NCBI GenBank assembly: GCA_045587145.1
Contig: JAZNBO010000038.1
Location: 4,275-68,274, forward strand
Direction of reading: 5' to 3'
From: Paludibacteraceae bacterium
GTDB taxonomy: Bacteria; Bacteroidota; Bacteroidia; Bacteroidales; Paludibacteraceae
DNA: 64,000 nucleotides
Every line of letters begins with the position of its first letter. Positions within the stretch are counted from its first letter, which is position 1. The notes beneath the pieces are model-generated. The model searched no databases and was not told where the DNA came from. It saw only the letters and a program-made list of their open reading frames with translations. The position numbers and the translations under genes were made by a program. This document shows positions 707 through 59,370 of the stretch, in pieces.

Positions 707-803
707 AGTGTAGAGTGGTGTAGAATAGTTTAGAATGGTGTAGAATTGTACTATGCTACACAATACTACACAACGCTACACAATGCTAAACAAAATTGAA
801 AAA
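707..803. repeat. rnf intercistronic element copy A (4x GTGTAG-type hexamers, GTAC centre, 4-5x CTACAC-type hexamers, CAAAATTGAAAAA tail)
   Basis: Near-identical to 1810-1915 and 3151-3258; hexamers phased every 10 bp. Confidence 0.9.
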
Positions 804-813
804 TTTTTATATT

Positions 814-1809
814 ATGAAACCATTTATAGTATCTCCTGCACCTCACTTTCATAGCGGTGATAGCGTGCGGAAAAATATGTTGTTGGTGATCATCGCCCTG
901 CTGCCAGCTTACGTAGTGAGTGTGTTGGCATTCGGTTGGGGTGCACTCATCACCACAGCAATCAGCATCGCAGCATGTGTGCTGTTTGAGTGGCTGATTG
1001 CGAAATTTATCTTGAAACAAAAATCTACCATCTGCGACCTCTCTGCCGTACTGACTGGTTTGCTCCTCGCGTTCAACTTGCCAAGCAATTTGCCTTGGTG
1101 GATCGTAGTGATCGGCGCGTTGGTGGCTATCGGTGTGGCGAAGATGAGCTTCGGTGGATTAGGACAAAACCTCTTCAACCCAGCGTTGGTAGGTCGTGTA
1201 TTCTTGCTCATCTCTTTCCCTGCACAAATGACCACATGGCCAGTGCCACAAGGTTTTGCTACTTCTTATGTGGATGCAACCACTGGTGCTACTCCATTGG
1301 CAGCGTTGAAAGTGGCATTGCAAGGCAGTGATAGTATGCTTAACATTATCCCTAAGACTTGGGACGTACTCATCGGTTGGATGGGTGGTAGCTTGGGCGA
1401 GGTGAGTGCATTGCTCCTTCTTGCTGGTGGTATCTTCCTCATTATCACTCGCGTGATCACATGGCATATTCCAGTAAGTATCTTGGCTACTGTGGCATTG
1501 TTTGCTGCTGTGACAGGTTGGGCAGGCATGTTGCCAGAGGGCCTCTGCACATGCCAATACACTATGTTGAGTCTCTGCACTGGTGGTATGATGCTCGGTG
1601 CTTGGTTCATGGCGACAGACTATGTGACCTCTCCAATGAGCAACTGGGGTAAGATCATCTTCGGTATCGGCATCGGTCTGATCGTGATGGTGATTCGTAC
1701 ATGGGGCGCATACCCAGAAGGTATGTCGTTTGCTATCCTGATTATGAACGCTTGCGTTCCATTGTTGAACTTGATTCGTCCAAAACGCTTTGGCGAGAAG
1801 AAGAAATAA
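814..1809 (+). CDS. rnfD: Rnf complex subunit D (RnfD/NqrB family)
   Basis: Polytopic membrane ORF; APHFHSG N-terminus and TGATPL motif; ATG 814 preferred over TTG 796, which lies inside the repeat element. Confidence 0.9.
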   Translation: MKPFIVSPAPHFHSGDSVRKNMLLVIIALLPAYVVSVLAFGWGALITTAISIAACVLFEWLIAKFILKQKSTICDLSAVLTGLLLAFNLPSNLPWWIVVIGALVAIGVAKMSFGGLGQNLFNPALVGRVFLLISFPAQMTTWPVPQGFATSYVDATTGATPLAALKVALQGSDSMLNIIPKTWDVLIGWMGGSLGEVSALLLLAGGIFLIITRVITWHIPVSILATVALFAAVTGWAGMLPEGLCTCQYTMLSLCTGGMMLGAWFMATDYVTSPMSNWGKIIFGIGIGLIVMVIRTWGAYPEGMSFAILIMNACVPLLNLIRPKRFGEKKK

Positions 1810-1915
1810 AGCGCAAAGCGCCGTGTAGAGTGGTGTAGGATCGTTTAGAATAGTGTAGAATTGTACAACGCTACACAATACTACACAACGCTACACAATG
1901 CTAAACAAAATTAAA
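1810..1915. repeat. rnf intercistronic element copy B (with GCGCAAAGCGC mini-hairpin after the stop codon)
   Basis: Direct alignment by eye to copies A and C; only a few substitutions. Confidence 0.9.
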
Positions 1916-1921
1916 AAGATT

Positions 1922-2563
1922 ATGGCAAAATTAGTAAGTTCATTCAAGAATATGGCGCTCTCGCTAACCTGCATTGCACTAGTAGCAGCAGGAGCATTGG
2001 CGGGAGTGTATATGCTGACCATGGCGCCCATTGAGGCAGCTATGAAGGCAAAACAAGAAGCTGCTATCATGCAAGTATTGCCTCAGGTAGAAGGCTTGCA
2101 AGTAGCAGAAGCAGAAGATGCAAACGGCATCACTCTCTACAAAGCGTATGTAGGCGAAGAGTGGGTAGGTACAGCCGTTGAGGCAAGCACAGAGGGCAAC
2201 GCAAACATGCCTTTTGGTGGTACATTCCGCTTGATGGTTGGTTTTGATAACGTAGGCAACGTAGTAAACTATGTAGTACTTGAGCAAGCAGAGACCCCAG
2301 GTCTTGGTGCGCTGATGGTATCATGGTTCTGCAATGCGGATAAACCAGGACAAAACATCATTGGTAAGAATCCTGCTACCACCAACTTCACCGTAAGCAA
2401 AGATGGTGGCGATGTAGACGCAATCACTGCTTCTACTATCACATCGCGTGCGTTCCTTGAGGTAGTAGTGAAGGCTTACAACGCTATCGCTCAACAACCT
2501 ATGCCTATCGAGGCAACTAGCGGTGCAACACAATTAACAACTGAGGAAGGAGGCCAACAATGA
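1922..2563 (+). CDS. rnfG: Rnf complex subunit G (FMN-binding)
   Basis: N-terminal TM helix; FMN-attachment-like motif DAITASTITSRA; operon context; ATG 1922 preferred over ATG 1898 inside the repeat. Confidence 0.8.
   Translation: MAKLVSSFKNMALSLTCIALVAAGALAGVYMLTMAPIEAAMKAKQEAAIMQVLPQVEGLQVAEAEDANGITLYKAYVGEEWVGTAVEASTEGNANMPFGGTFRLMVGFDNVGNVVNYVVLEQAETPGLGALMVSWFCNADKPGQNIIGKNPATTNFTVSKDGGDVDAITASTITSRAFLEVVVKAYNAIAQQPMPIEATSGATQLTTEEGGQQ
2547..2553 (+). promoter_or_regulatory. Shine-Dalgarno-like AAGGAGG 6 nt upstream of the rnfE ATG
   Basis: AAGGAGG read directly; this is the only rnf junction without the repeat element and it has an ATGA stop/start overlap. Confidence 0.5.
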
Positions 2564-3150
2564 AAAATAAAGCATTAAGTACAGTATTAAACGGTATCTT
2601 GCGCGAGAACCCTGTGTTTGCGTTGGTACTCGGTATGTGTCCTACCTTGGCGACTACCACTTCAGCTATCAATGGTATGTCCATGGGACTTGCAACCACT
2701 TTTGTGCTCGTGTGCTCAAATGTGGTGATCTCACTTTTGAAAAACTTGATTCCAGATAAGGTACGTATCCCTGCATTCATCGTGGTGATTGCTACCTTCG
2801 TAACCATGGTACAATTGCTCATGCAAGCCTACTTGCCTTCTATTTATGATGTGCTCGGTTTGTTCATTCCGCTGATCGTAGTGAACTGTATCGTACTTGG
2901 TCGTGCAGAGGCTTTTGCAGCTAAGAACACCGTAGGATTGTCTGCTTTGGATGGCCTTGGCATGGGCTTGGGCTTTACCTTGGCATTGACTTTGATTGGT
3001 GCAGTACGTGAGTTGCTCGGTACAGGTTGCGTATTTGGCTTGAACCTCTATAGCGAGACTTATGGCATGCTCATCTTCGTATTGGCTCCTGGTGCGTTTA
3101 TCGTATTGGGCTACTTGATGGCATTGGTGCAGAAACTTTTGAAAAAGTAA
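2560..3150 (+). CDS. rnfE: Rnf complex subunit E
   Basis: 196-aa membrane protein; LGMCPTLATT motif typical of RnfE/NqrD. Confidence 0.9.
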   Translation: MKNKALSTVLNGILRENPVFALVLGMCPTLATTTSAINGMSMGLATTFVLVCSNVVISLLKNLIPDKVRIPAFIVVIATFVTMVQLLMQAYLPSIYDVLGLFIPLIVVNCIVLGRAEAFAAKNTVGLSALDGLGMGLGFTLALTLIGAVRELLGTGCVFGLNLYSETYGMLIFVLAPGAFIVLGYLMALVQKLLKK

Positions 3151-3258
3151 GGCGCATAGCGCCGTGTAGAGTGGTGTAGAATCGTTTAGAATAGTGTAGA
3201 ATTGTACAACGCTACACAATACTACACAACACTACACAATGCTACACAAAATTGAAAA
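3151..3258. repeat. rnf intercistronic element copy C (with GGCGCATAGCGCC mini-hairpin)
   Basis: Near-identical to copies A and B. Confidence 0.9.
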
Positions 3259-3268
3259 TTTTGATATT

Positions 3269-3862
3269 ATGGTATATTTCTTGATATTTATCTCTGCGAT
3301 ATTCGTTAATAATATCGTATTGAGCCAATTCTTGGGTATTTGCCCATTTTTGGGAGTAAGTAAGAAAATTAGCACAGCATTGGGTATGGGTGCAGCTGTA
3401 ACCTTCGTTATGGCATTGGCTACTTTGGTTACCTATTTGTTGCAACAGTTGCTCAACGCATGGGGACTTGGTTTCTTGCAAACTATATTGTTCATCTTGG
3501 TGATTGCCGCTTTGGTGCAAATGATTGAGATCGTATTGAAGAAGATCTCTCCTGCTTTGTATCAAGCATTGGGTGTGTTCTTGCCATTGATTACCACCAA
3601 CTGCTGCTTGCTTGGTGTGGCTATCATGGTAGCAACAGGTACTTATAAATTGCCTATGGGCGCTGAGCCAAGCATGTTGACTGGTTTGCTCTTCGCTATC
3701 GCAACCGCTTTGGGCTTTGCCGTAGCATTGGTATTGTTCGCAGGTATGCGCGAGCAATTGGCAATGGCTAAAGTGCCAAAAGCAATGCAAGGAACTCCTA
3801 TCGCCCTTTTGACTGCTGGTCTTTTGGCGATGGCATTCATGGGCTTTAGCGGTGTAGTATAA
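3269..3862 (+). CDS. rnfA: Rnf complex subunit A
   Basis: LGICPFLGVS motif; 6-TM-like profile; ATG 3269 preferred over ATG 3239 inside the repeat. Confidence 0.9.
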   Translation: MVYFLIFISAIFVNNIVLSQFLGICPFLGVSKKISTALGMGAAVTFVMALATLVTYLLQQLLNAWGLGFLQTILFILVIAALVQMIEIVLKKISPALYQALGVFLPLITTNCCLLGVAIMVATGTYKLPMGAEPSMLTGLLFAIATALGFAVALVLFAGMREQLAMAKVPKAMQGTPIALLTAGLLAMAFMGFSGVV

Positions 3863-12042: not shown

Positions 12043-12091
12043 GTAGTGTGGTATAAGGTTGTGTAGTGTTGTTTAGAGTGGGGTAGAGTCG
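12043..12091. repeat. 10-bp-phased TAG-word array between the ispD-like start and the kdsC-like 3' end
   Basis: GTAGTGTGGTATAAGGTTGTGTAGTGTTGTTTAGAGTGGGGTAGAGTCG; supplies the kdsC-like C-terminus NDSTPL and its stop. Confidence 0.8.
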
Positions 12092-12585
12092 TTTTTTGCG
12101 GCGAGTATCATTTCGCAGAGTTCGCGGATAGCGCCGTCGCCGCCGTTTTTGGTGAGGTGGATAATGCCAGGGACGGCTTTGACTACGGCTACGGCGTTGG
12201 CTGGGCATGCGGCTACGCCTGCGTGCTGCAAGAGATCGAGGTCGTTGACATCATCGCCCACAAAGCATACATTCTCCAACGAAATGCCCAATTCGTTGCA
12301 AATCTCGTTCGCAGCATCGAGTTTGGTCATCTTCACGCCGTCCACTACGCGACCGACACCTGTGTATATATATTCCAAACCGAGTTTCTGACCGCGTTTC
12401 AAGCCAATGGCAGTGTTCTCGCTGGTGAGGATACCGCAAGGGATACCCGCTTTGCGCAAGAGTACAATACCCATGCCGTCATATACGCAGAAACGTTTGA
12501 ACTCGTCACCGCTCTCGGTGTAGTACATACCGCCGTCGGTCATGCAACCGTCCACGTCGGTGAGAAATAGTTTCACTTCGTTCAT
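12073..12585 (-). CDS. KdsC-family HAD phosphatase (sugar-acid phosphate phosphatase type)
   Basis: DVDGCMTDG nucleophile motif; GDDVNDLDLL motif IV; ~170 aa capless HAD. Confidence 0.75.
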   Translation of the reverse strand: MNEVKLFLTDVDGCMTDGGMYYTESGDEFKRFCVYDGMGIVLLRKAGIPCGILTSENTAIGLKRGQKLGLEYIYTGVGRVVDGVKMTKLDAANEICNELGISLENVCFVGDDVNDLDLLQHAGVAACPANAVAVVKAVPGIIHLTKNGGDGAIRELCEMILAAKNDSTPL

Positions 12586-12587
12586 TA

Positions 12588-12637
12588 TGTTTAGAGTTGT
12601 TTAGAATCGTTTAGAGTTGTTTAGAATTGTGTAAAAA
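12588..12637. repeat. Perfectly 10-bp-phased GTTTAGA(G/A)T array x4-5
   Basis: TGTTTAGAGT TGTTTAGAAT CGTTTAGAGT TGTTTAGAAT TGTGTAAAAA; encodes the GT4 C-terminus YTILNNSKRF and its stop. Confidence 0.9.
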
Positions 12638-13743: not shown

Positions 13744-13882
13744 AGTGTATGTTAATTAAAGACAACTTAGACAACTTCTGCGCGGCGCCAACATTGCGCC
13801 TTGCCAAGGATATAATTTTTTTATAATTCGTGCCGCTGAGCAGTGTTGGCGAAGCGGAATTGTTGTTTGTGTTGTCTTCTTA

Positions 13883-16352: not shown

Positions 16353-16395
16353 TTGGTGTAGGGTTGTTTAGAATTGTTTAGAGTAGTTTAAAGAG
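16353..16395. repeat. 10-bp-phased GTGTAG/GTTTAG array after the ruvA stop
   Basis: TTGGTGTAGGGTTGTTTAGAATTGTTTAGAGTAGTTTAAAGAG. Confidence 0.8.
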
Positions 16396-16410
16396 AAAAG
16401 GAAAGGTATA

Positions 16411-23874: not shown

Positions 23875-23877
23875 CAT

Positions 23878-23912
23878 CGTGCCTTTACACCTTACACTAT
23901 TCACTATAAACT
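23878..23912. repeat. C/A-strand word array (CCTTTACAC CTTACAC TATTCAC TATAAAC) just upstream of the ATPase start
   Basis: Reverse complement matches GTGTAAGGTGTAAAGGCACG at 28364-28386. Confidence 0.65.
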
Positions 23913-23915
23913 AAA

Positions 23916-24398
23916 ATGTTTAAGGTTGGTATTATCGGCCCTGAGTCCACAGGCAAGAGTACGCTTGCACAGTATTTGGCCACTCAACATGGTGGATTGT
24001 TCGTTTCCGAGCATGCGCGCGTATATTTAGAGGAGCGAGCGCGCGAGCACGGGAGCGCATACGCGTACACGCGCGAAGATGTGTTGCGCATAGCAGAATA
24101 TCAGGTAGAACAACTTCGTGAACTGTCTCAGCAAGAGGGAGTGGCGTTTTTTGATACAGAACTGATAATCACAAAAGTGTGGTTTGAGCACAAATATGGT
24201 GAGTGTCCTTCGTTTGTAGAAGATGCCTTGCACCAATATCCGATGGACGTGTACTTGTTGTGTTATCCCGATTTGGAGTGGGAACCTGACCCCGTGCGCG
24301 AGAACCCTAATATACGCGAGTACCTATTTGATTGGTATGAGCGTGAGATTCAAGCATTAGACATACCGTATTATATTGTTCGGCATAGTGTAGGGTAG
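23916..24398 (+). CDS. P-loop ATPase/kinase (NadR C-terminal-domain-like)
   Basis: Walker A GPESTGKST; 160 aa. Confidence 0.55.
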   Translation: MFKVGIIGPESTGKSTLAQYLATQHGGLFVSEHARVYLEERAREHGSAYAYTREDVLRIAEYQVEQLRELSQQEGVAFFDTELIITKVWFEHKYGECPSFVEDALHQYPMDVYLLCYPDLEWEPDPVRENPNIREYLFDWYEREIQALDIPYYIVRHSVG

Positions 24399-24452
24399 GG
24401 TTGTATAGGGTAGTGTAGGATGGTGTAGAGTTGTATAAGGTAGTGCAAGATG
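24387..24452. repeat. 10-bp-phased GTGTAGG/GTATAGG array; supplies the last codons (HSVG) and stop of the ATPase gene
   Basis: AGTGTAGGGTAGGGTTGTATAGGGTAGTGTAGGATGGTGTAGAGTTGTATAAGGTAGTGCAAGATGG. Confidence 0.8.
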
Positions 24453-24470
24453 GAAATAGTATAAATAACA

Positions 24471-27299: not shown

Positions 27300-27373
27300 G
27301 TTGTGGGGGGAGGTTGTTGAAAGGTGTTGAAAGTCTGTGAGATGTGAGGAGGAAGTCATGGTGATTATTCGGT

Positions 27374-27421
27374 GAAGTTCCTATGAAGTTCCTATGAAGA
27401 TCCTATGAAGTTCCTATGAAA
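27374..27421. repeat. Tandem 11-bp repeat GAAGTTCCTAT x4 (third copy GAAGATCCTAT)
   Basis: Read directly. Confidence 0.95.
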
Positions 27422-28349: not shown

Positions 28350-28352
28350 TTG

Positions 28353-28386
28353 ATGTAAAGTGTAAGGTGTAAAGTGTAAAGGCACG
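28353..28386. repeat. 7-bp TGTAAAG/TGTAAGG array in the murI 5' leader
   Basis: ATGTAAAGTGTAAGGTGTAAAGTGTAAAGGCACGG. Confidence 0.85.
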
Positions 28387-38714: not shown

Positions 38715-38839
38715 TGGCAGACGGCTATTTGGAATCTCACTATGCTGACTACGAAAAACGTAAGGCAGCATGGCTCAAAAAAAAGAATAAAAACAAGCCT
38801 CGTCCCTTGGTTGAAAAACCAGAGGACGAAGCGTTGTAA
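38714..38839 (+). CDS. Candidate 41-aa basic small protein (MADGYLESHYADYEKRKAAWLKKKNKNKPRPLVEKPEDEAL), below the ORF-track cutoff
   Basis: ATG overlaps the skp-2 stop (TAATG); uninterrupted 41 codons. Confidence 0.35.
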   Translation: MADGYLESHYADYEKRKAAWLKKKNKNKPRPLVEKPEDEAL

Positions 38840-38878
38840 ATACAACTCTATACAATTCTATACAACTATGGTACAACA
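38839..38878. repeat. 10-bp-phased CTATACAA array spanning the MFS start codon
   Basis: AATACAACTCTATACAATTCTATACAACTATGGTACAACA. Confidence 0.75.
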
Positions 38879-40241: not shown

Positions 40242-41514
40242 GGAGTCCATCCTTGTGAGTACGGATACACGCAATCTGCCTGCAGGTTGCGTGTTCTTTG
40301 CGCTTCATGGGGCGAATTTTGATGGCAATAAGTTTGCTAAGCAGGCACTCGAAAGCGGTGCTACATTGGCAGTGATTGATAATCCTGAATATGCATTGGC
40401 AGAAGGAACTCTATTGGTACCCAATACGTTGCTGGCTTTGCAAGATTTGGCACGCGCATGGCGTCGTGAATTAGGACTACCTATCATCGGTATTACTGGT
40501 ACCAACGGCAAGACAACCACCAAAGAGCTCTTGGCAGCAGTTCTTTCCACGAAATATAATATCCACTATACGCAGGGAAACCTCAATAATCAAATAGGTG
40601 TACCCCTTACCTTATTACAAATCTCGCGTGCGCACGAGATGGCTATCGTGGAGATGGGTGCTTCACATCCGGGTGATATTAAAGAACTCGTGGATATAGC
40701 AGAGCCTAACTATGGGTTGATTACTAATGTCGGTCGCGCTCATTTAGAAGGATTTGGCTCGTTTGAAGGCGTGCAACGCACCAAGCAAGAACTCTACGAC
40801 TACCTCGTTGCTCATAATGGTACTATCTTCCGCAATGTCGACAACACTTACCTCATGCGCATGCATGAGAATGCTCTTGCCTCTCGCCTTAGCGGGGTCC
40901 CCGAAAACGCTTGTGGCGTTTTGGGGTGCTCTTCGCCTCTCGCCAGCGGGGTCCCCGAAAAATCTGCTGATTTTTGGGGTGCTCTATCGCCTATTACCTA
41001 CACCACAGGCACAATGCCATCTGGCACAAATCTTGTTGGAGGATATAATGCGGAGAATGTGTCTGCTGCTTTGTGTGTAGGTGCGTATTTTGGGGTTTCG
41101 AAGGAGCAAGCGTTGGAGGCTGTTCGCCGTTATGTGCCAACAAATAATCGTTCACAAGCCATGCAAACGGCTAACAACCAGTTGATAGTAGATGCTTATA
41201 ATGCGAATCCGACATCTATGCAGGCGGCTATCAACGCATTCAAAGGCGATACATACATTCTTGGTGCGATGCGTGAGTTGGGAGAATACTCGCACTTGGA
41301 ACACCAGAATGTGGTGAATATGTTGGCTGAGCGCAAGGCTGATTGGGTCTTTCTCGTAGGAGAAGAGTACTTGCAGACGACATCGCCATATCCTGTGTAT
41401 GAGAATGTAGAGCAATTACATGAATACTTGGAGGCGAATCCGCTGAAAGGTAAAAATATCCTTCTCAAAGGCTCTCGCTCTACTAAAATGGAAAAATTGT
41501 TAGATATACTATAA
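40213..41514 (+). CDS. murF: UDP-N-acetylmuramoyl-tripeptide--D-alanyl-D-alanine ligase
   Basis: VSTDTR, GITGTNGKTTTKE, DAYNANP and LKGSR motifs. Confidence 0.85.
   Translation: MDWSFLIRNKESILVSTDTRNLPAGCVFFALHGANFDGNKFAKQALESGATLAVIDNPEYALAEGTLLVPNTLLALQDLARAWRRELGLPIIGITGTNGKTTTKELLAAVLSTKYNIHYTQGNLNNQIGVPLTLLQISRAHEMAIVEMGASHPGDIKELVDIAEPNYGLITNVGRAHLEGFGSFEGVQRTKQELYDYLVAHNGTIFRNVDNTYLMRMHENALASRLSGVPENACGVLGCSSPLASGVPEKSADFWGALSPITYTTGTMPSGTNLVGGYNAENVSAALCVGAYFGVSKEQALEAVRRYVPTNNRSQAMQTANNQLIVDAYNANPTSMQAAINAFKGDTYILGAMRELGEYSHLEHQNVVNMLAERKADWVFLVGEEYLQTTSPYPVYENVEQLHEYLEANPLKGKNILLKGSRSTKMEKLLDIL
40873..40991. repeat. In-frame tandem 54-bp module (2 full units plus a partial third), each unit containing a terminator-like hairpin
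   Basis: GCTCTTGCCTCTCGCC..GCGGGGTCCCCGAAAACGC-TTGT-GGCGTTTTGGGGT and GCTCTTCGCCTCTCGCC..GCGGGGTCCCCGAAAAATC-TGCT-GATTTTTGGGGT, then GCTCTATCGCC. Confidence 0.9.
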
Positions 41515-42902: not shown

Positions 42903-42930
42903 TTTGGTATAACTCTACAAAAAAGCAAGG

Positions 42931-42962
42931 CTATCCACCGCTTATCCACCGCTTATCCACCC
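42931..42962. repeat. 11-bp tandem repeat (C/T)TATCCACCGC x3
   Basis: Read directly. Confidence 0.9.
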
Positions 42963-43012
42963 GATAGAGGGGAGGAGATTATAAAGGCATGGCTACTTGG
43001 TTCTTCGAGAAT

Positions 43013-57407: not shown

Positions 57408-57408
57408 T

Positions 57409-57445
57409 TAGGCGACGAGGCGAAAGGCTATTAGGCGAGAAGCAA
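57409..57445. repeat. GGCGAnGAGGCGAAAGGC array after the permease stop
   Basis: TAGGCGACGAGGCGAAAGGCTATTAGGCGAGAAGCAA. Confidence 0.8.
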
Positions 57446-57471
57446 GAAATAGCGGCTTTGCCGCATGCCCC

Positions 57472-57503
57472 AGCCTTTTACCTCTAACCTTTAATCTTTA
57501 AAC
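57472..57503. repeat. 7-bp CCTTTAA-type array upstream of the yqeY start
   Basis: CAGCCTTTTACCTCTAACCTTTAATCTTTAAA. Confidence 0.75.
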
Positions 57504-57513
57504 AGATAATAAT

Positions 57514-59287: not shown

Positions 59288-59320
59288 TAAAAAAGCATAC
59301 CGATGGGTGTGCTTTTTTTT
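59288..59320 (+). terminator. rpsU intrinsic terminator
   Basis: AAAAAAGCATACC-GAT-GGGTGTGCTTTTTTTT. Confidence 0.8.
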
Positions 59321-59370
59321 GTTGTGTAGAATGGTATAGTATGGTGTATGGTTGTGTGGGGTAGTGCAAA
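59321..59370. repeat. 10-bp-phased GTGTAG/GTATAG array after the rpsU terminator
   Basis: GTTGTGTAGAATGGTATAGTATGGTGTATGGTTGTGTGGGGTAGTGCAAA. Confidence 0.8.

What the first reader, a model, noticed from the sequence alone, without database searches (positions are those of the whole stretch)
707..3258. Three near-identical ~100-bp intercistronic elements partition the rnf operon
The rnfC/D, rnfD/G and rnfE/A junctions (707-803, 1810-1915, 3151-3258) are filled by the same sequence, with only a few substitutions between copies.

Architecture of each copy:
- In copies B and C, a GC mini-hairpin (GCGCAAAGCGC or GGCGCATAGCGCC) sits right after the stop codon.
- Four GTGTAG/GTTTAG hexamers follow, phased every 10 bp.
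- A GTAC centre follows.
- Four to five copies of the reverse-complement word CTACAC/CTAAAC follow, also phased every 10 bp.
- The element ends in CAAAATTGAAAAA, 10-25 nt before the most plausible ATG.

The two arms can pair only as 6-bp helices separated by 4x4 internal loops. One-helical-turn phasing is as compatible with a DNA- or RNA-binding protein array as with a simple hairpin.

The only rnf junction without the element (rnfG/E) has an ATGA overlap plus a canonical AAGGAGG (2547-2553). That is otherwise rare in this SD-poor genome. So every internal cistron has either an SD or this element. This points to a role in translation (re)initiation, mRNA processing or differential subunit stoichiometry. 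I do not recognise this element from described REP/BIME/MITE families.
Basis: seen in the sequence. Interest (0 to 1): 0.7.

Follow-up and report, generated by a model that had tools for sequence, protein, structure and literature searches.

The report
Swappable hairpin repeat cassettes between rnf genes
The three look-alike ~100-base spacers in this gut bacterium's rnf operon are real copies of one hairpin-forming repeat cassette, but close relatives carry no spacer or quite different cassettes at the same gene junctions, so it is a fast-moving, dispensable element of the REP/ERIC kind and not an essential expression signal.

Summary
Three copies, 93-96% identical, fill the rnfC/D, rnfD/G and rnfE/A gaps. 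Each has four phased GTKTAG decamers, a GTAC centre, four inverse CTAMAC decamers and an A-rich tail.

The element is not specific to rnf biology. Its 3' arm is the ordinary decamer repeat of uncultured ruminant-gut Paludibacteraceae. That repeat normally occurs as a one-armed array on the sense strand just upstream of start codons (27 arrays against 1 in the opposite orientation).

The palindromic form is dispensable and highly polymorphic:
- Strains with an identical RnfE protein carry an empty 13-nt junction with GGAGG, which is the ancestral state.
- Other such strains carry unrelated cassettes of the same design: stop codon, hairpin, A-rich tail, ATG.
- There is no target-site duplication.
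- Copy C carries sequence derived from the rnfD/G junction, so it arose by copying from copy B.
- Copy A is 99% identical between species whose flanking genes are about 85% identical, which points to spread by recombination.

Base pairs show no covariation, and nothing matches in Rfam.

Best reading: a new family of REP/ERIC-like intercistronic hairpin cassettes. It probably loops out of the mRNA and leaves an unstructured, Shine-Dalgarno-free start region. Any effect on expression is modulatory and untested.

The parts
707..813 (+). Copy A, the whole rnfC/rnfD spacer. 5' arm 708-747 (4 x GTKTAGARTN), centre GTACTATG 748-755, 3' arm 756-795 (4 x CTAMACAAYR), unpaired A/U-rich tail 796-813, then the rnfD ATG at 814.
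   Evidence: RNA fold MFE -28.9 kcal/mol, z -3.8. Orthologous copies in L069 (92.5% identical) and L106 (99.1% identical).
1810..1921 (+). Copy B, the whole rnfD/rnfG spacer. GC mini-hairpin GCGCAAAGCGC 1811-1821, 5' arm 1823-1862, centre GTACAACG 1863-1870, 3' arm 1871-1910, short tail 1911-1921, then the rnfG ATG at 1922.
   Evidence: 112/112 identical to L201 and present in L069. Absent from L119, L120, L204 and L205, which have TAAGGAGGATAGRAYTATG instead.
3151..3268 (+). Copy C, the whole rnfE/rnfA spacer. GC mini-hairpin GGCGCATAGCGCC 3151-3163, 5' arm 3164-3203, centre 3204-3211, 3' arm 3212-3251, tail 3252-3268, then the rnfA ATG at 3269.
   Evidence: MFE -34.2 kcal/mol, z -4.6. The site is empty in L069 and holds an unrelated 'family 2' cassette in L199-L208 and L120. 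The mini-hairpin is identical to that of L069 copy B.
2547..2563 (+). rnfG/rnfE junction without the element: AAGGAGG at 2547-2553 and the ATGA stop/start overlap at 2560-2563. There is no non-coding gap here.
   Evidence: Tight or overlapping G/E junctions occur in nearly all of about 80 relatives.
12043..12092 (-). One-armed array of the same decamer family. It is CA-rich on the sense (-) strand and ends at the ATG (12042) of the downstream gene.
   Evidence: An orthologous array of different length lies at the same junction in L006.
12586..12630 (-). One-armed array (CTAAACNNNN x 4 on the sense strand). The upstream ORF stops at a TAA inside a CTAAAC unit, and the next ATG follows 3 nt after the array.
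38839..38867 (+). Short array of a related decamer (ATACAAYTCT x 3) that runs straight into an ATG at 38868.
   Evidence: The true start codon of this gene was not verified.
16353..16397 (+). Array of the same decamer in the opposite, GT-rich sense orientation, directly after a stop codon. It is an exception to the orientation rule.
24383..24454 (+). GT-rich decamer array that overlaps the stop codon of a + strand gene and is followed by a terminator hairpin. Another exception to the orientation rule.
59314..59365 (+). GT-rich decamer array between a terminator and a promoter. It is kept, with a length change, in the orthologous place in L004.
57408..57513 (+). Unrelated cassette of the same design at another co-directional junction: AGGCGAN repeats, a central GC hairpin, CCTTTAA-type repeats, then an A-rich tail and the ATG.
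   Evidence: Fold z -2.0.
13744..13882 (-). Another unrelated palindromic cassette between two - strand genes. Here the CA-rich arm comes first and the GU-rich arm second.
   Evidence: Fold MFE -41.1 kcal/mol, z -5.0.

Best explanation
**What it is.** The three elements are copies of one family of fast-evolving, dispensable intercistronic repeat cassettes. The host is an uncultured ruminant-gut Paludibacteraceae (Bacteroidales).

**How it is built.**
- The 3' arm is this lineage's ordinary decamer repeat, CTAMACMAYN on the sense strand. That repeat normally stands as a one-armed, G-poor array directly upstream of start codons.
- The 5' arm is an inverted copy of that array.

**How it most likely works (inferred).**
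- The element is transcribed as part of the rnf polycistronic mRNA.
- The two arms fold into an imperfect hairpin of about 85 nt.
- The hairpin begins 1-14 nt after the stop codon. In copies B and C the GC mini-hairpin comes first.
- The hairpin ends 15-32 nt before the next AUG.
- The inserted bases are therefore looped out. The stop and start codons stay close in space. An unpaired tail that is A/U-rich and G-poor serves as the Shine-Dalgarno-independent start region typical of Bacteroidota.
- Any effect is modulatory, not required. Like a REP or ERIC element, the hairpin could act as a barrier to 3' exonucleases or as a processing point, or it could tune coupling between neighbouring cistrons.

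**How it spreads.** It spreads by recombination and not by cut-and-paste transposition. This includes copying between junctions of the same operon (B to C) and homologous recombination between strains and species.

**Shown versus inferred.**
- Shown: the anatomy, the folding potential, the presence/absence and replacement polymorphism, the lack of a target-site duplication, the orientation bias and the identity peaks between species.
- Inferred: co-transcription, hairpin formation in vivo, and any effect on mRNA stability or translation.
For: **1. Family context.**
- The same decamer forms one-armed arrays at other gene junctions in the window.
- It also does so in many Paludibacteraceae MAGs.
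- Among 51 non-edge one-armed arrays, 27 have a long-ORF ATG within 60 nt downstream in the CA-rich orientation, against 1 in the GT-rich orientation.
- The upstream ORF often stops at a TAA inside a CTAAAC unit.

**2. Dispensability and replacement.**
- L119, L120, L204 and L205 have a 13-nt rnfD/G junction.
- L069 has a 4-nt rnfE/A junction.
- L199-L208 encode an identical RnfE and are 92-98% identical in rnf coding DNA. They carry four other cassette families at the same junctions.

**3. A shared design despite unrelated sequences.** About 20 cassettes all show a hairpin starting 0-9 nt after the stop codon, z-scores of -2 to -12, and an A-rich tail before the ATG.

**4. Mode of spread.**
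- There is no target-site duplication.
- GGAGGATAG of the ancestral D/G spacer, which is widespread in relatives, survives as GGCGCATAG in copy B. The same sequence is present in copy C at a different junction.
- Element A is 99.1% identical between the window and L106. Its flanks are 96% and 93% identical, against 79-89% further away. L069 shows a similar peak.

**5. Signals that are absent.** The elements contain no sense-strand terminator and no Bacteroidetes-type promoter.

**6. Genome context.** Leaders in this genome are A-rich (42%), G-poor (14%) and SD-poor (2 of 47 genes). This agrees with published work on Bacteroidetes (PMC3155529, PMC6847099, PMC7797042).
Against: - No base pair shows covariation: 25 pairs were predicted and none has a compensatory change.
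- Substitutions avoid paired columns (2/50 against 6/24, p = 0.012). They avoid the hexamers equally (2/48 against 8/36, p = 0.016). The hexamers are also conserved in one-armed arrays, so this conservation cannot be credited to pairing.
- The very high identity of elements A and B across species could reflect strong purifying selection, meaning a real function, instead of recent transfer.
- In about 1.45 Mb of related DNA, the full palindromic family-1 form scored highly only in and next to rnf operons. One divergent relative lies elsewhere, in L013. This is odd for a freely dispersing selfish repeat, although the sample is biased.
- No transcript, structure-probing or translation data exist for this organism.
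- Copy C has a B-type body and an A-type tail, so its history is not a simple copy of B.
Confidence: 0.55

Rival explanations
1. Translation module. The CA-rich decamer arm plus the A-rich tail is a selected, Shine-Dalgarno-independent ribosome landing pad, for example for ribosomal protein S1. The complementary GU-rich arm masks it. A ribosome terminating on the upstream cistron melts the outer helices and so couples translation of neighbouring Rnf subunits.
For: - CA-sense arrays end a median of about 9 nt before start codons, with an orientation ratio of 27 to 1.
- The hairpin starts 1-14 nt after the stop codon, within reach of a terminating ribosome.
- The cassettes replace an ancestral GGAGG junction.
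- All alternative cassettes keep an unpaired A-rich tail.
- Published work shows that Bacteroidetes initiation depends on unstructured A-rich leaders (PMC6847099, PMC3155529).
- A similar idea was proposed for TAACTGA repeats (PMC4679880).
Against: - Empty or very short junctions work in conspecific strains.
- The 15-32-nt tail next to the AUG is unpaired anyway, so masking of the arm may not matter.
- GT-sense arrays also exist (window 16353, 24383, 59314).
- One cassette has the opposite arm order (13744-13882).
- No direct evidence is available.
Confidence: 0.2
2. True REP/REPIN-type or MITE-type mobile DNA. A trans-acting transposase, such as a RAYT/IS200-family Y1 enzyme that recognises GTAG next to hairpins in single-stranded DNA, moves the element and inserts it into intercistronic gaps.
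For: - Every hexamer of the 5' arm contains GTAG.
- The left arms of cassette families 2 and 3 are tandem 'GT(T)AGAYC + 5-bp GC stem-loop' units, which look like GTAG-tagged REPs (definition in PMC3733652).
- Insertion without a target-site duplication fits IS200/IS605-type chemistry.
- The distribution among strains is patchy.
Against: - The family-1 units are non-palindromic decamers, and GTAG lies inside the long stem.
- In copies B and C the GC stem-loop sits on the wrong side of the tag for a canonical GTAG REP.
- Copy C carries junction-specific flanking sequence from the D/G site. This is expected for gene conversion and not for excision of a defined element.
- An exploratory tblastn with an IS200 transposase sequence recalled from memory found nothing in 1.48 Mb. 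This is weak negative evidence only.
- GTAG REPs were not reported in Bacteroidetes (PMC3733652).
Confidence: 0.12
3. DNA-level array. The hexamers, phased one helical turn apart, bind a DNA-binding protein such as a regulator or a nucleoid protein, or they bend the DNA. They would then act on transcription or chromosome structure and not on RNA.
For: - The period is exactly 10 bp in both arms.
- Some arrays lie next to terminators or promoters and not next to start codons (24383-24454, 59314-59365).
Against: - The strong strand bias relative to the downstream gene (27 to 1) is not expected for a symmetric DNA site.
- Unit number varies from 3 to 15.
- Neighbouring junctions use periods of 7, 8 and 11 and unrelated motifs.
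- The sites are dispensable.
Confidence: 0.05
4. Control of transcription polarity. The C-rich, G-poor 3' arm is a Rho loading (rut-like) site with YC dinucleotides every 10 nt. The 5' arm sequesters it, so Rho terminates within the operon only when folding or translation fails.
For: The 3' arms have 22-31% C and 6-14% G, against 33-36% G in the 5' arms. This rival rests on inference from general knowledge of rut sites.
Against:
- One-armed CA arrays sit inside many operons without a masking arm.
- Cassettes of other families have A/U-rich arms without C enrichment.
Confidence: 0.05

Closest known systems
ERIC/IRU elements and REP/BIME clusters of Enterobacteria and Pseudomonas
   Same: - They are imperfect palindromes of tens to about 130 bp in transcribed intergenic regions, often between co-directional genes.
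- They show presence/absence and type polymorphism between strains.
- They are thought to act as RNA hairpins that alter the stability of mRNA segments.
- There are multiple families per genome, and they form clusters and tandem arrangements (PMC3733652, PMC2817692).
   Different: - There is no sequence similarity.
- The arms here are built from phased 10-nt tandem repeats instead of a single GC-rich stem.
- The whole stop-to-start spacer is replaced.
- No RAYT has been linked to these elements.
- GTAG REPs have not been reported in Bacteroidetes (PMC3733652).
- Spread appears to be by gene conversion or recombination.
TAACTGA heptamer direct repeats of Beggiatoaceae, cyanobacteria and some Bacteroidetes (MacGregor 2015, PMC4679880), and cyanobacterial STRR heptamers
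   Same: - They are short direct repeats whose period is not a multiple of 3.
- They are mostly intergenic and in 'forward' orientation, ending a few nt upstream of start codons.
- They give stop codons in all three frames and sometimes overlap the end of the upstream ORF.
- They differ in length between strains by whole units.
- Their function is unknown, and a role in translation has been suggested.
- These properties match the one-armed decamer arrays and the 3' arm of the rnf elements.
   Different: - The motif and period are different (10 nt, CTAMACMAYN).
- The rnf elements add an inverted copy of the array, making a long hairpin. That paper reports only one indirect repeat.
Correia/NEMIS elements of Neisseria and other MITEs, including the P. 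gingivalis MITE with an internal minisatellite (PMC4596501)
   Same: - They are small non-autonomous repeats that are co-transcribed with neighbouring genes.
- They form hairpins and have a variable presence between strains.
- In P. gingivalis there are tandem repeats inside the element.
   Different: MITEs have defined terminal inverted repeats and target-site duplications. No duplication is seen here, and the element's boundaries coincide with the stop and start codons.
Rickettsia palindromic elements (RPE) and intragenic REPs
   Same: A family-1-like palindrome lies in frame inside the 3' tail of rnfB in L200. It replaces about 20 residues of a low-complexity linker. This resembles palindromic repeats that are tolerated inside genes.
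   Different: The three copies in the window are strictly non-coding. There is no sequence relation.
Plastid intercistronic expression elements (IEE; PMC2230500)
   Same: This is a resemblance in concept only. A short intercistronic RNA element punctuates a polycistronic mRNA and allows stable, translatable downstream units.
   Different: The organism, sequence and mechanism differ (the plastid element works through binding of PPR proteins). The resemblance is functional only and is untested.

Membership tests
GTAG-tagged REP / BIME (REPIN-RAYT systems) | The unit is a 20-40-bp GC-rich palindrome (stem 5-13 bp) with an unpaired GTAG tetranucleotide at one end. | tested here: not met
   Family-1 units are 10-nt non-palindromic repeats, and GTAG lies inside the long stem. 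Only copies B and C have a 4-5-bp GC stem-loop, and it lies 5' of GTGTAG, the wrong side for the canonical arrangement. Cassette families 2 and 3 in relatives do resemble the definition.
GTAG-tagged REP / BIME (REPIN-RAYT systems) | Association with a RAYT (Y1/IS200-like) transposase gene. | tested here: inconclusive
   An exploratory tblastn with an IS200 TnpA sequence recalled from memory found no hit in 1.48 Mb of window plus loci. No complete genome was available.
GTAG-tagged REP / BIME (REPIN-RAYT systems) | High copy number, dispersed through extragenic space. | tested here: inconclusive
   Decamer arrays are frequent: at least 9 in 64 kb, and many in related MAGs. The full palindromic family-1 form scored highly only at rnf loci in 1.45 Mb of biased sampling.
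MITE | Target-site duplication flanking the insertion. | tested here: not met
   Filled and empty sites were compared at rnfE/A (window against L069) and at rnfD/G (window and L069 against L119 and L120). No duplicated bases were found.
MITE | Terminal inverted repeats that match those of an autonomous IS element. | not testable with these tools
   The whole element is an inverted repeat. No candidate parent IS was present in the sequences held.
Short direct repeats upstream of start codons (TAACTGA type, PMC4679880) | Tandem units with a period that is not a multiple of 3, in forward orientation and ending within a few nt to tens of nt of a start codon. | tested here: met
   For one-armed arrays the orientation ratio is 27 to 1, with distances of 1-54 nt (median about 9). 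The rnf 3' arms end 15-22 nt before the ATG.
Short direct repeats upstream of start codons (TAACTGA type, PMC4679880) | The TAACTGA motif itself. | tested here: not met
   The unit here is CTAMACMAYN.
Intrinsic (Rho-independent) terminator | A GC-rich hairpin directly followed by a U-run on the transcribed strand. | tested here: not met
   No sense-strand hit lies inside the elements. Only the GC mini-hairpins of copies B and C, read on the antisense strand, are followed by a T-run, and that T-run comes from lysine codons.
Any Rfam family | A score at or above the family's gathering threshold. | tested here: not met
   There were no matches at gathering threshold apart from two tRNAs elsewhere in the window. 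In the permissive search the only matches were far below threshold, to animal miRNA-precursor hairpins (22 bits against 56-70).
Structured cis-regulatory RNA (generic) | Base pairs supported by compensatory changes. | tested here: inconclusive
   Of 25 predicted pairs, none has a change on both sides. Nearly all pairs are invariant among the 6 copies.

The most novel reading that the evidence does not exclude
The G-poor decamer arrays, and the analogous 7-8-nt repeats at rnf junctions of relatives, could be a selected and evolvable substitute for the Shine-Dalgarno sequence in Bacteroidota. They would be repeat-built ribosome landing pads whose strength is set by unit number. The palindromic versions would be coupling switches that hide the pad until the upstream cistron is translated. 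Whole cassettes would be exchanged between strains and species by a homing-like gene conversion, which leaves the identity peaks seen around element A.
Probability: 0.15. Interest if true: 0.8.

Novelty: new variant of a known kind. Interest (0 to 1): 0.55.

Why it matters
How Bacteroidota start translation of internal cistrons without Shine-Dalgarno pairing is still poorly understood. This locus offers natural allelic series at the same operon junctions within one species. The alleles are an ancestral GGAGG junction, one-armed repeat leaders, and at least five unrelated hairpin cassettes. Together they form a ready-made experiment on how spacer structure affects coupling, mRNA stability and subunit balance in a membrane complex.

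The locus also extends REP/ERIC-like intercistronic palindromes to uncultured gut Bacteroidales, with an unusual construction in which the arms are made of phased tandem repeats. The evidence points to spread by recombination and not by transposition.

If the cassettes turn out to be neutral passengers, the finding is mainly a caution against reading function into conserved-looking intercistronic repeats.

Tried and rejected
- **Rfam.** Searches at gathering and at permissive thresholds found nothing relevant.
- **Plasmids.** BLAST of copy A against the plasmid collection gave no match.
- **Integron attC.** The GTTAGA/TCTAAC words of family 2 fit the core and inverse-core consensus, but they are in the wrong order. 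These are also conserved core-metabolism genes in fixed order and not gene cassettes. Rejected on reasoning.
- **Internal promoter or terminator.** There is no TAnnTTTG motif in the sense direction inside the elements and no sense-strand terminator.
- **Covariation and covariance model.**
  - The covariation analysis was uninformative because the pairs are invariant.
  - The covariance model R1 found no further high-scoring full copies beyond the rnf region. It found only divergent relatives in L013, at the L069 rnfA 3' junction, and weak hits in Saprospiraceae and Chitinophagaceae.
- **A 'GT arm first, CA arm second' rule.** It holds 17 to 0 for GTKTAG/CTAMAC palindromes. Two points limit it:
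  - A palindrome reads the same on both strands, so the order says nothing about the sense strand.
  - The cassette at window 13744-13882 has the opposite order.
  I therefore do not use it as evidence of function.
- **Exact-protein look-ups.** Two other window proteins next to one-armed arrays were not on record. Strain-level polymorphism of those arrays could only be seen in two cross-species comparisons.
- **IS200/RAYT search.** It used a sequence recalled from memory and was negative, which is weak evidence.
- **DNA uptake sequence.** This idea was considered and dropped because uptake sequences are dispersed single motifs and not tandem arrays. It was not tested.

Full report
**Observation**

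The window begins inside rnfC and continues through rnfD, rnfG, rnfE and rnfA. Identical or near-identical genes on public contigs carry the expected Pfam families: RnfC_N, NQR2_RnfD_RnfE, FMN_bind and Rnf-Nqr. RnfB and an RseC_MucC protein lie upstream.

The three spacers 707-813, 1810-1921 and 3151-3268 fill the space between stop and start codon exactly. They align over their whole length. Each contains the following parts:
- four GTKTAG hexamers at 10-nt spacing
- a GTAC centre
- four CTAMAC hexamers at 10-nt spacing
- an A-rich tail

Copies B and C also begin with a GC mini-hairpin.

Core identities are 93-96.5%, so chance is excluded. As RNA the sense strand folds into a long imperfect hairpin with MFE -28.5 to -34.2 kcal/mol and z-scores of -2.6 to -4.6. 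The arms are repeats, so alternative pairing registers exist. The rnfG/E junction has AAGGAGG and an ATGA overlap, as reported. SD-like words are rare in the window (2 of 47 starts), and leaders are A-rich and G-poor.

**The element belongs to a much larger repeat family**

The same decamer occurs as one-armed tandem arrays at other junctions in the window:
- 12043-12092
- 12586-12630
- 16353-16397
- 24383-24454
- 59314-59365
- a related unit at 38839-38867

The hits were heavily enriched in gut Paludibacteraceae MAGs, with related GTTTAG arrays in Chitinophagaceae and Saprospiraceae. The window's best DNA matches are Paludibacteraceae MAGs from ruminant gut.

I examined 51 one-armed arrays away from contig edges. 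In 27 a long ORF starts within 60 nt downstream when the array is read CA-rich. In only 1 does this happen when it is read GT-rich. The upstream ORF often ends at a TAA inside a CTAAAC unit. The typical state is therefore a G-poor repeat leader directly upstream of a start codon at a co-directional junction.

This is the behaviour described for TAACTGA heptamer repeats in Beggiatoaceae, cyanobacteria and some Bacteroidetes (PMC4679880). The function of those repeats is also unknown. The rnf elements are this array (the 3' arm) plus an inverted copy of it (the 5' arm).

**Comparison of rnf operons**

A metagenome scan with RnfE returned 80 rnf loci. In most of them the junctions are short:

| Junction | Usual spacer length (nt) |
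|---|---|
| C/D | 6-60 |
| D/G | -8 to 30 |
| G/E | overlapping, or fewer than 17 |
| E/A | 1-44 |

The D/G junction in the wider family is almost always TAA-GGAGG-N6-8-ATG. That is the ancestral state.

Family-1 palindromes occur only in these places:
- the window
- L201, at D/G, identical to the window copy
- L069, at C/D, at D/G, and as a divergent copy between rnfA and the next gene
- L106, at C/D
- L200, as a family-1-like sequence lying in frame inside the rnfB tail

L069 has an empty E/A junction, TAAGATTATG. L119, L120, L204 and L205 have the empty D/G junction.

Ten contigs that encode exactly the window's RnfE are 92-98% identical to the window in rnf coding DNA. They hold entirely different cassettes at the same junctions:
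- a GTTAGA/TCTAAC family, at up to three junctions in one strain
- a GTAGAT/ATCTAC family
- an AT-rich family
- a GTTCAACATN/TGAACA family with the same decamer-arm design
- a short one-armed repeat

More distant relatives show further examples. One is a 294-nt TTAATTGG/CCAATTAA palindrome with z -12. Many others are one-armed 7-8-nt repeats.

All of the long cassettes share one design. The hairpin starts 0-9 nt after the stop codon, and an unpaired A-rich tail precedes the ATG. Two more cassettes of this kind lie elsewhere in the window, at 57408-57513 and 13744-13882.

**How the element spreads**
- Filled and empty sites show no target-site duplication.
- The left half of the GC mini-hairpin (GGCGCATAG) is the mutated remnant of the ancestral D/G spacer GGAGGATAG. 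The same sequence sits at the E/A junction in copy C, identical to L069 copy B. Copy C therefore carries sequence specific to the D/G junction and must derive from a B-type copy by ectopic copying. Its tail is A-type, so its history is mosaic.
- Element A is 106/107 identical between the window and L106. The adjacent 100 nt are 96% and 93% identical, and the rest of rnfC/D is 79-89% identical. The comparison with L069 shows a similar peak.

This pattern fits recent introgression of the cassette with short flanking tracts. The alternative is unusually strong constraint on the element. The data here cannot separate the two.

**Tests of specific functions**
- Rfam has nothing relevant.
- RNAalifold finds 25 pairs and no compensatory change.
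- Substitutions avoid paired columns (p = 0.012). They avoid the hexamers to the same degree (p = 0.016), and the hexamers are conserved in one-armed arrays too. The case for a selected RNA structure is therefore open.
- The elements have no sense-strand terminator and no Bacteroidetes promoter.
- An exploratory search for a Y1 transposase found nothing. This is weak evidence.
- The strand bias of the arrays argues for an RNA-level or translation-level constraint and against a DNA-binding site.

**Interpretation**

The best-supported account is that these are dispensable, rapidly turning-over intercistronic hairpin cassettes. They resemble REP, ERIC and BIME elements in behaviour but not in sequence or unit structure. 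They are tolerated because the hairpin loops the insert out and because each cassette supplies an unstructured A-rich start region. They spread by gene conversion and homologous recombination.

A modulatory role remains plausible but untested. Candidates are an exonuclease barrier, a processing point, or tuning of translational coupling in an organism that lacks Shine-Dalgarno initiation.

rnfG/E lacks the element simply because it has no non-coding gap.

**Limits**
- No complete genome of the source organism could be examined.
- The locus sample is biased towards arrays and towards rnf operons.
- No expression data exist for this organism.

Noticed in passing
L200:1078-1193 (rnfB 3' end): A family-1-like palindrome (GTGTAG units, then CTAAAC/CTACAC units) lies in frame inside the C-terminal low-complexity tail of RnfB. 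It replaces about 20 residues found in other strains, and the final EEEAKA* and the ATGA overlap with rnfC are kept. This is reminiscent of Rickettsia palindromic elements inside genes.
   Followed up: partly
L119-L141 rnfD/G junctions; window 2547-2553: A canonical GGAGG sits 6-8 nt upstream of the rnfG ATG and is conserved across many Paludibacteraceae-like relatives. AAGGAGG precedes rnfE in the window. This is notable in a phylum whose ribosomes are reported not to use Shine-Dalgarno pairing. It may relate to re-initiation at tightly coupled junctions.
   Followed up: partly
window 1810-1822 and 3151-3163, minus strand: Read on the antisense strand, the GC mini-hairpins of copies B and C are followed by T-runs that come from the lysine codons at the ends of rnfD and rnfE. 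They score as terminator-like sites and could stop antisense transcription.
   Followed up: no
window 27373-27420: Four and a half tandem copies of the 11-mer TGAAGTTCCTA lie in a gap between convergent genes. From memory, GAAGTTCCTAT equals the first 11 bases of the yeast FLP recognition repeat. This is probably a coincidence.
   Followed up: no
window 40872-40992 and 42911-42971: A 54-nt unit with a GGGGTCCCCGAAAA...TTTTGGGG hairpin is present in 2.2 tandem copies. A separate repeat has the unit TATCCACCGCT. Both have 86-100% matches in other Paludibacteraceae loci (L062, L065, L101), so they are further dispersed repeat families.
   Followed up: no
L135, L137, L141, L142 (rnfC/D junction): These relatives have 500-800 nt between rnfC and rnfD, enough for an inserted gene. 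The content was not examined.
   Followed up: no
L147:2157-2452: A 294-nt rnfE/A spacer is made of about 10 TTAATTGG-type units followed by about 15 CCAATTAA-type units. It is predicted to form a hairpin with MFE -87 kcal/mol and z -12, the most extreme example of the cassette design.
   Followed up: partly
window 23875-23915 and 28350-28386: Two unrelated genes on opposite strands have near-identical leaders (CGTGCCTTTACAC followed by CTTTACA-type repeats) directly upstream of their ATGs. This is another small leader-repeat family.
   Followed up: no
L163, L166-L168, L170, L171 (rnfE/A, 93 nt); L157, L162, L164, L165 (78 nt): Human-gut Bacteroidales relatives carry a conserved rnfE/A spacer with an A-rich arm, a GC hairpin and a T-rich arm. 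It looks like a bidirectional intrinsic terminator inside the operon.
   Followed up: no
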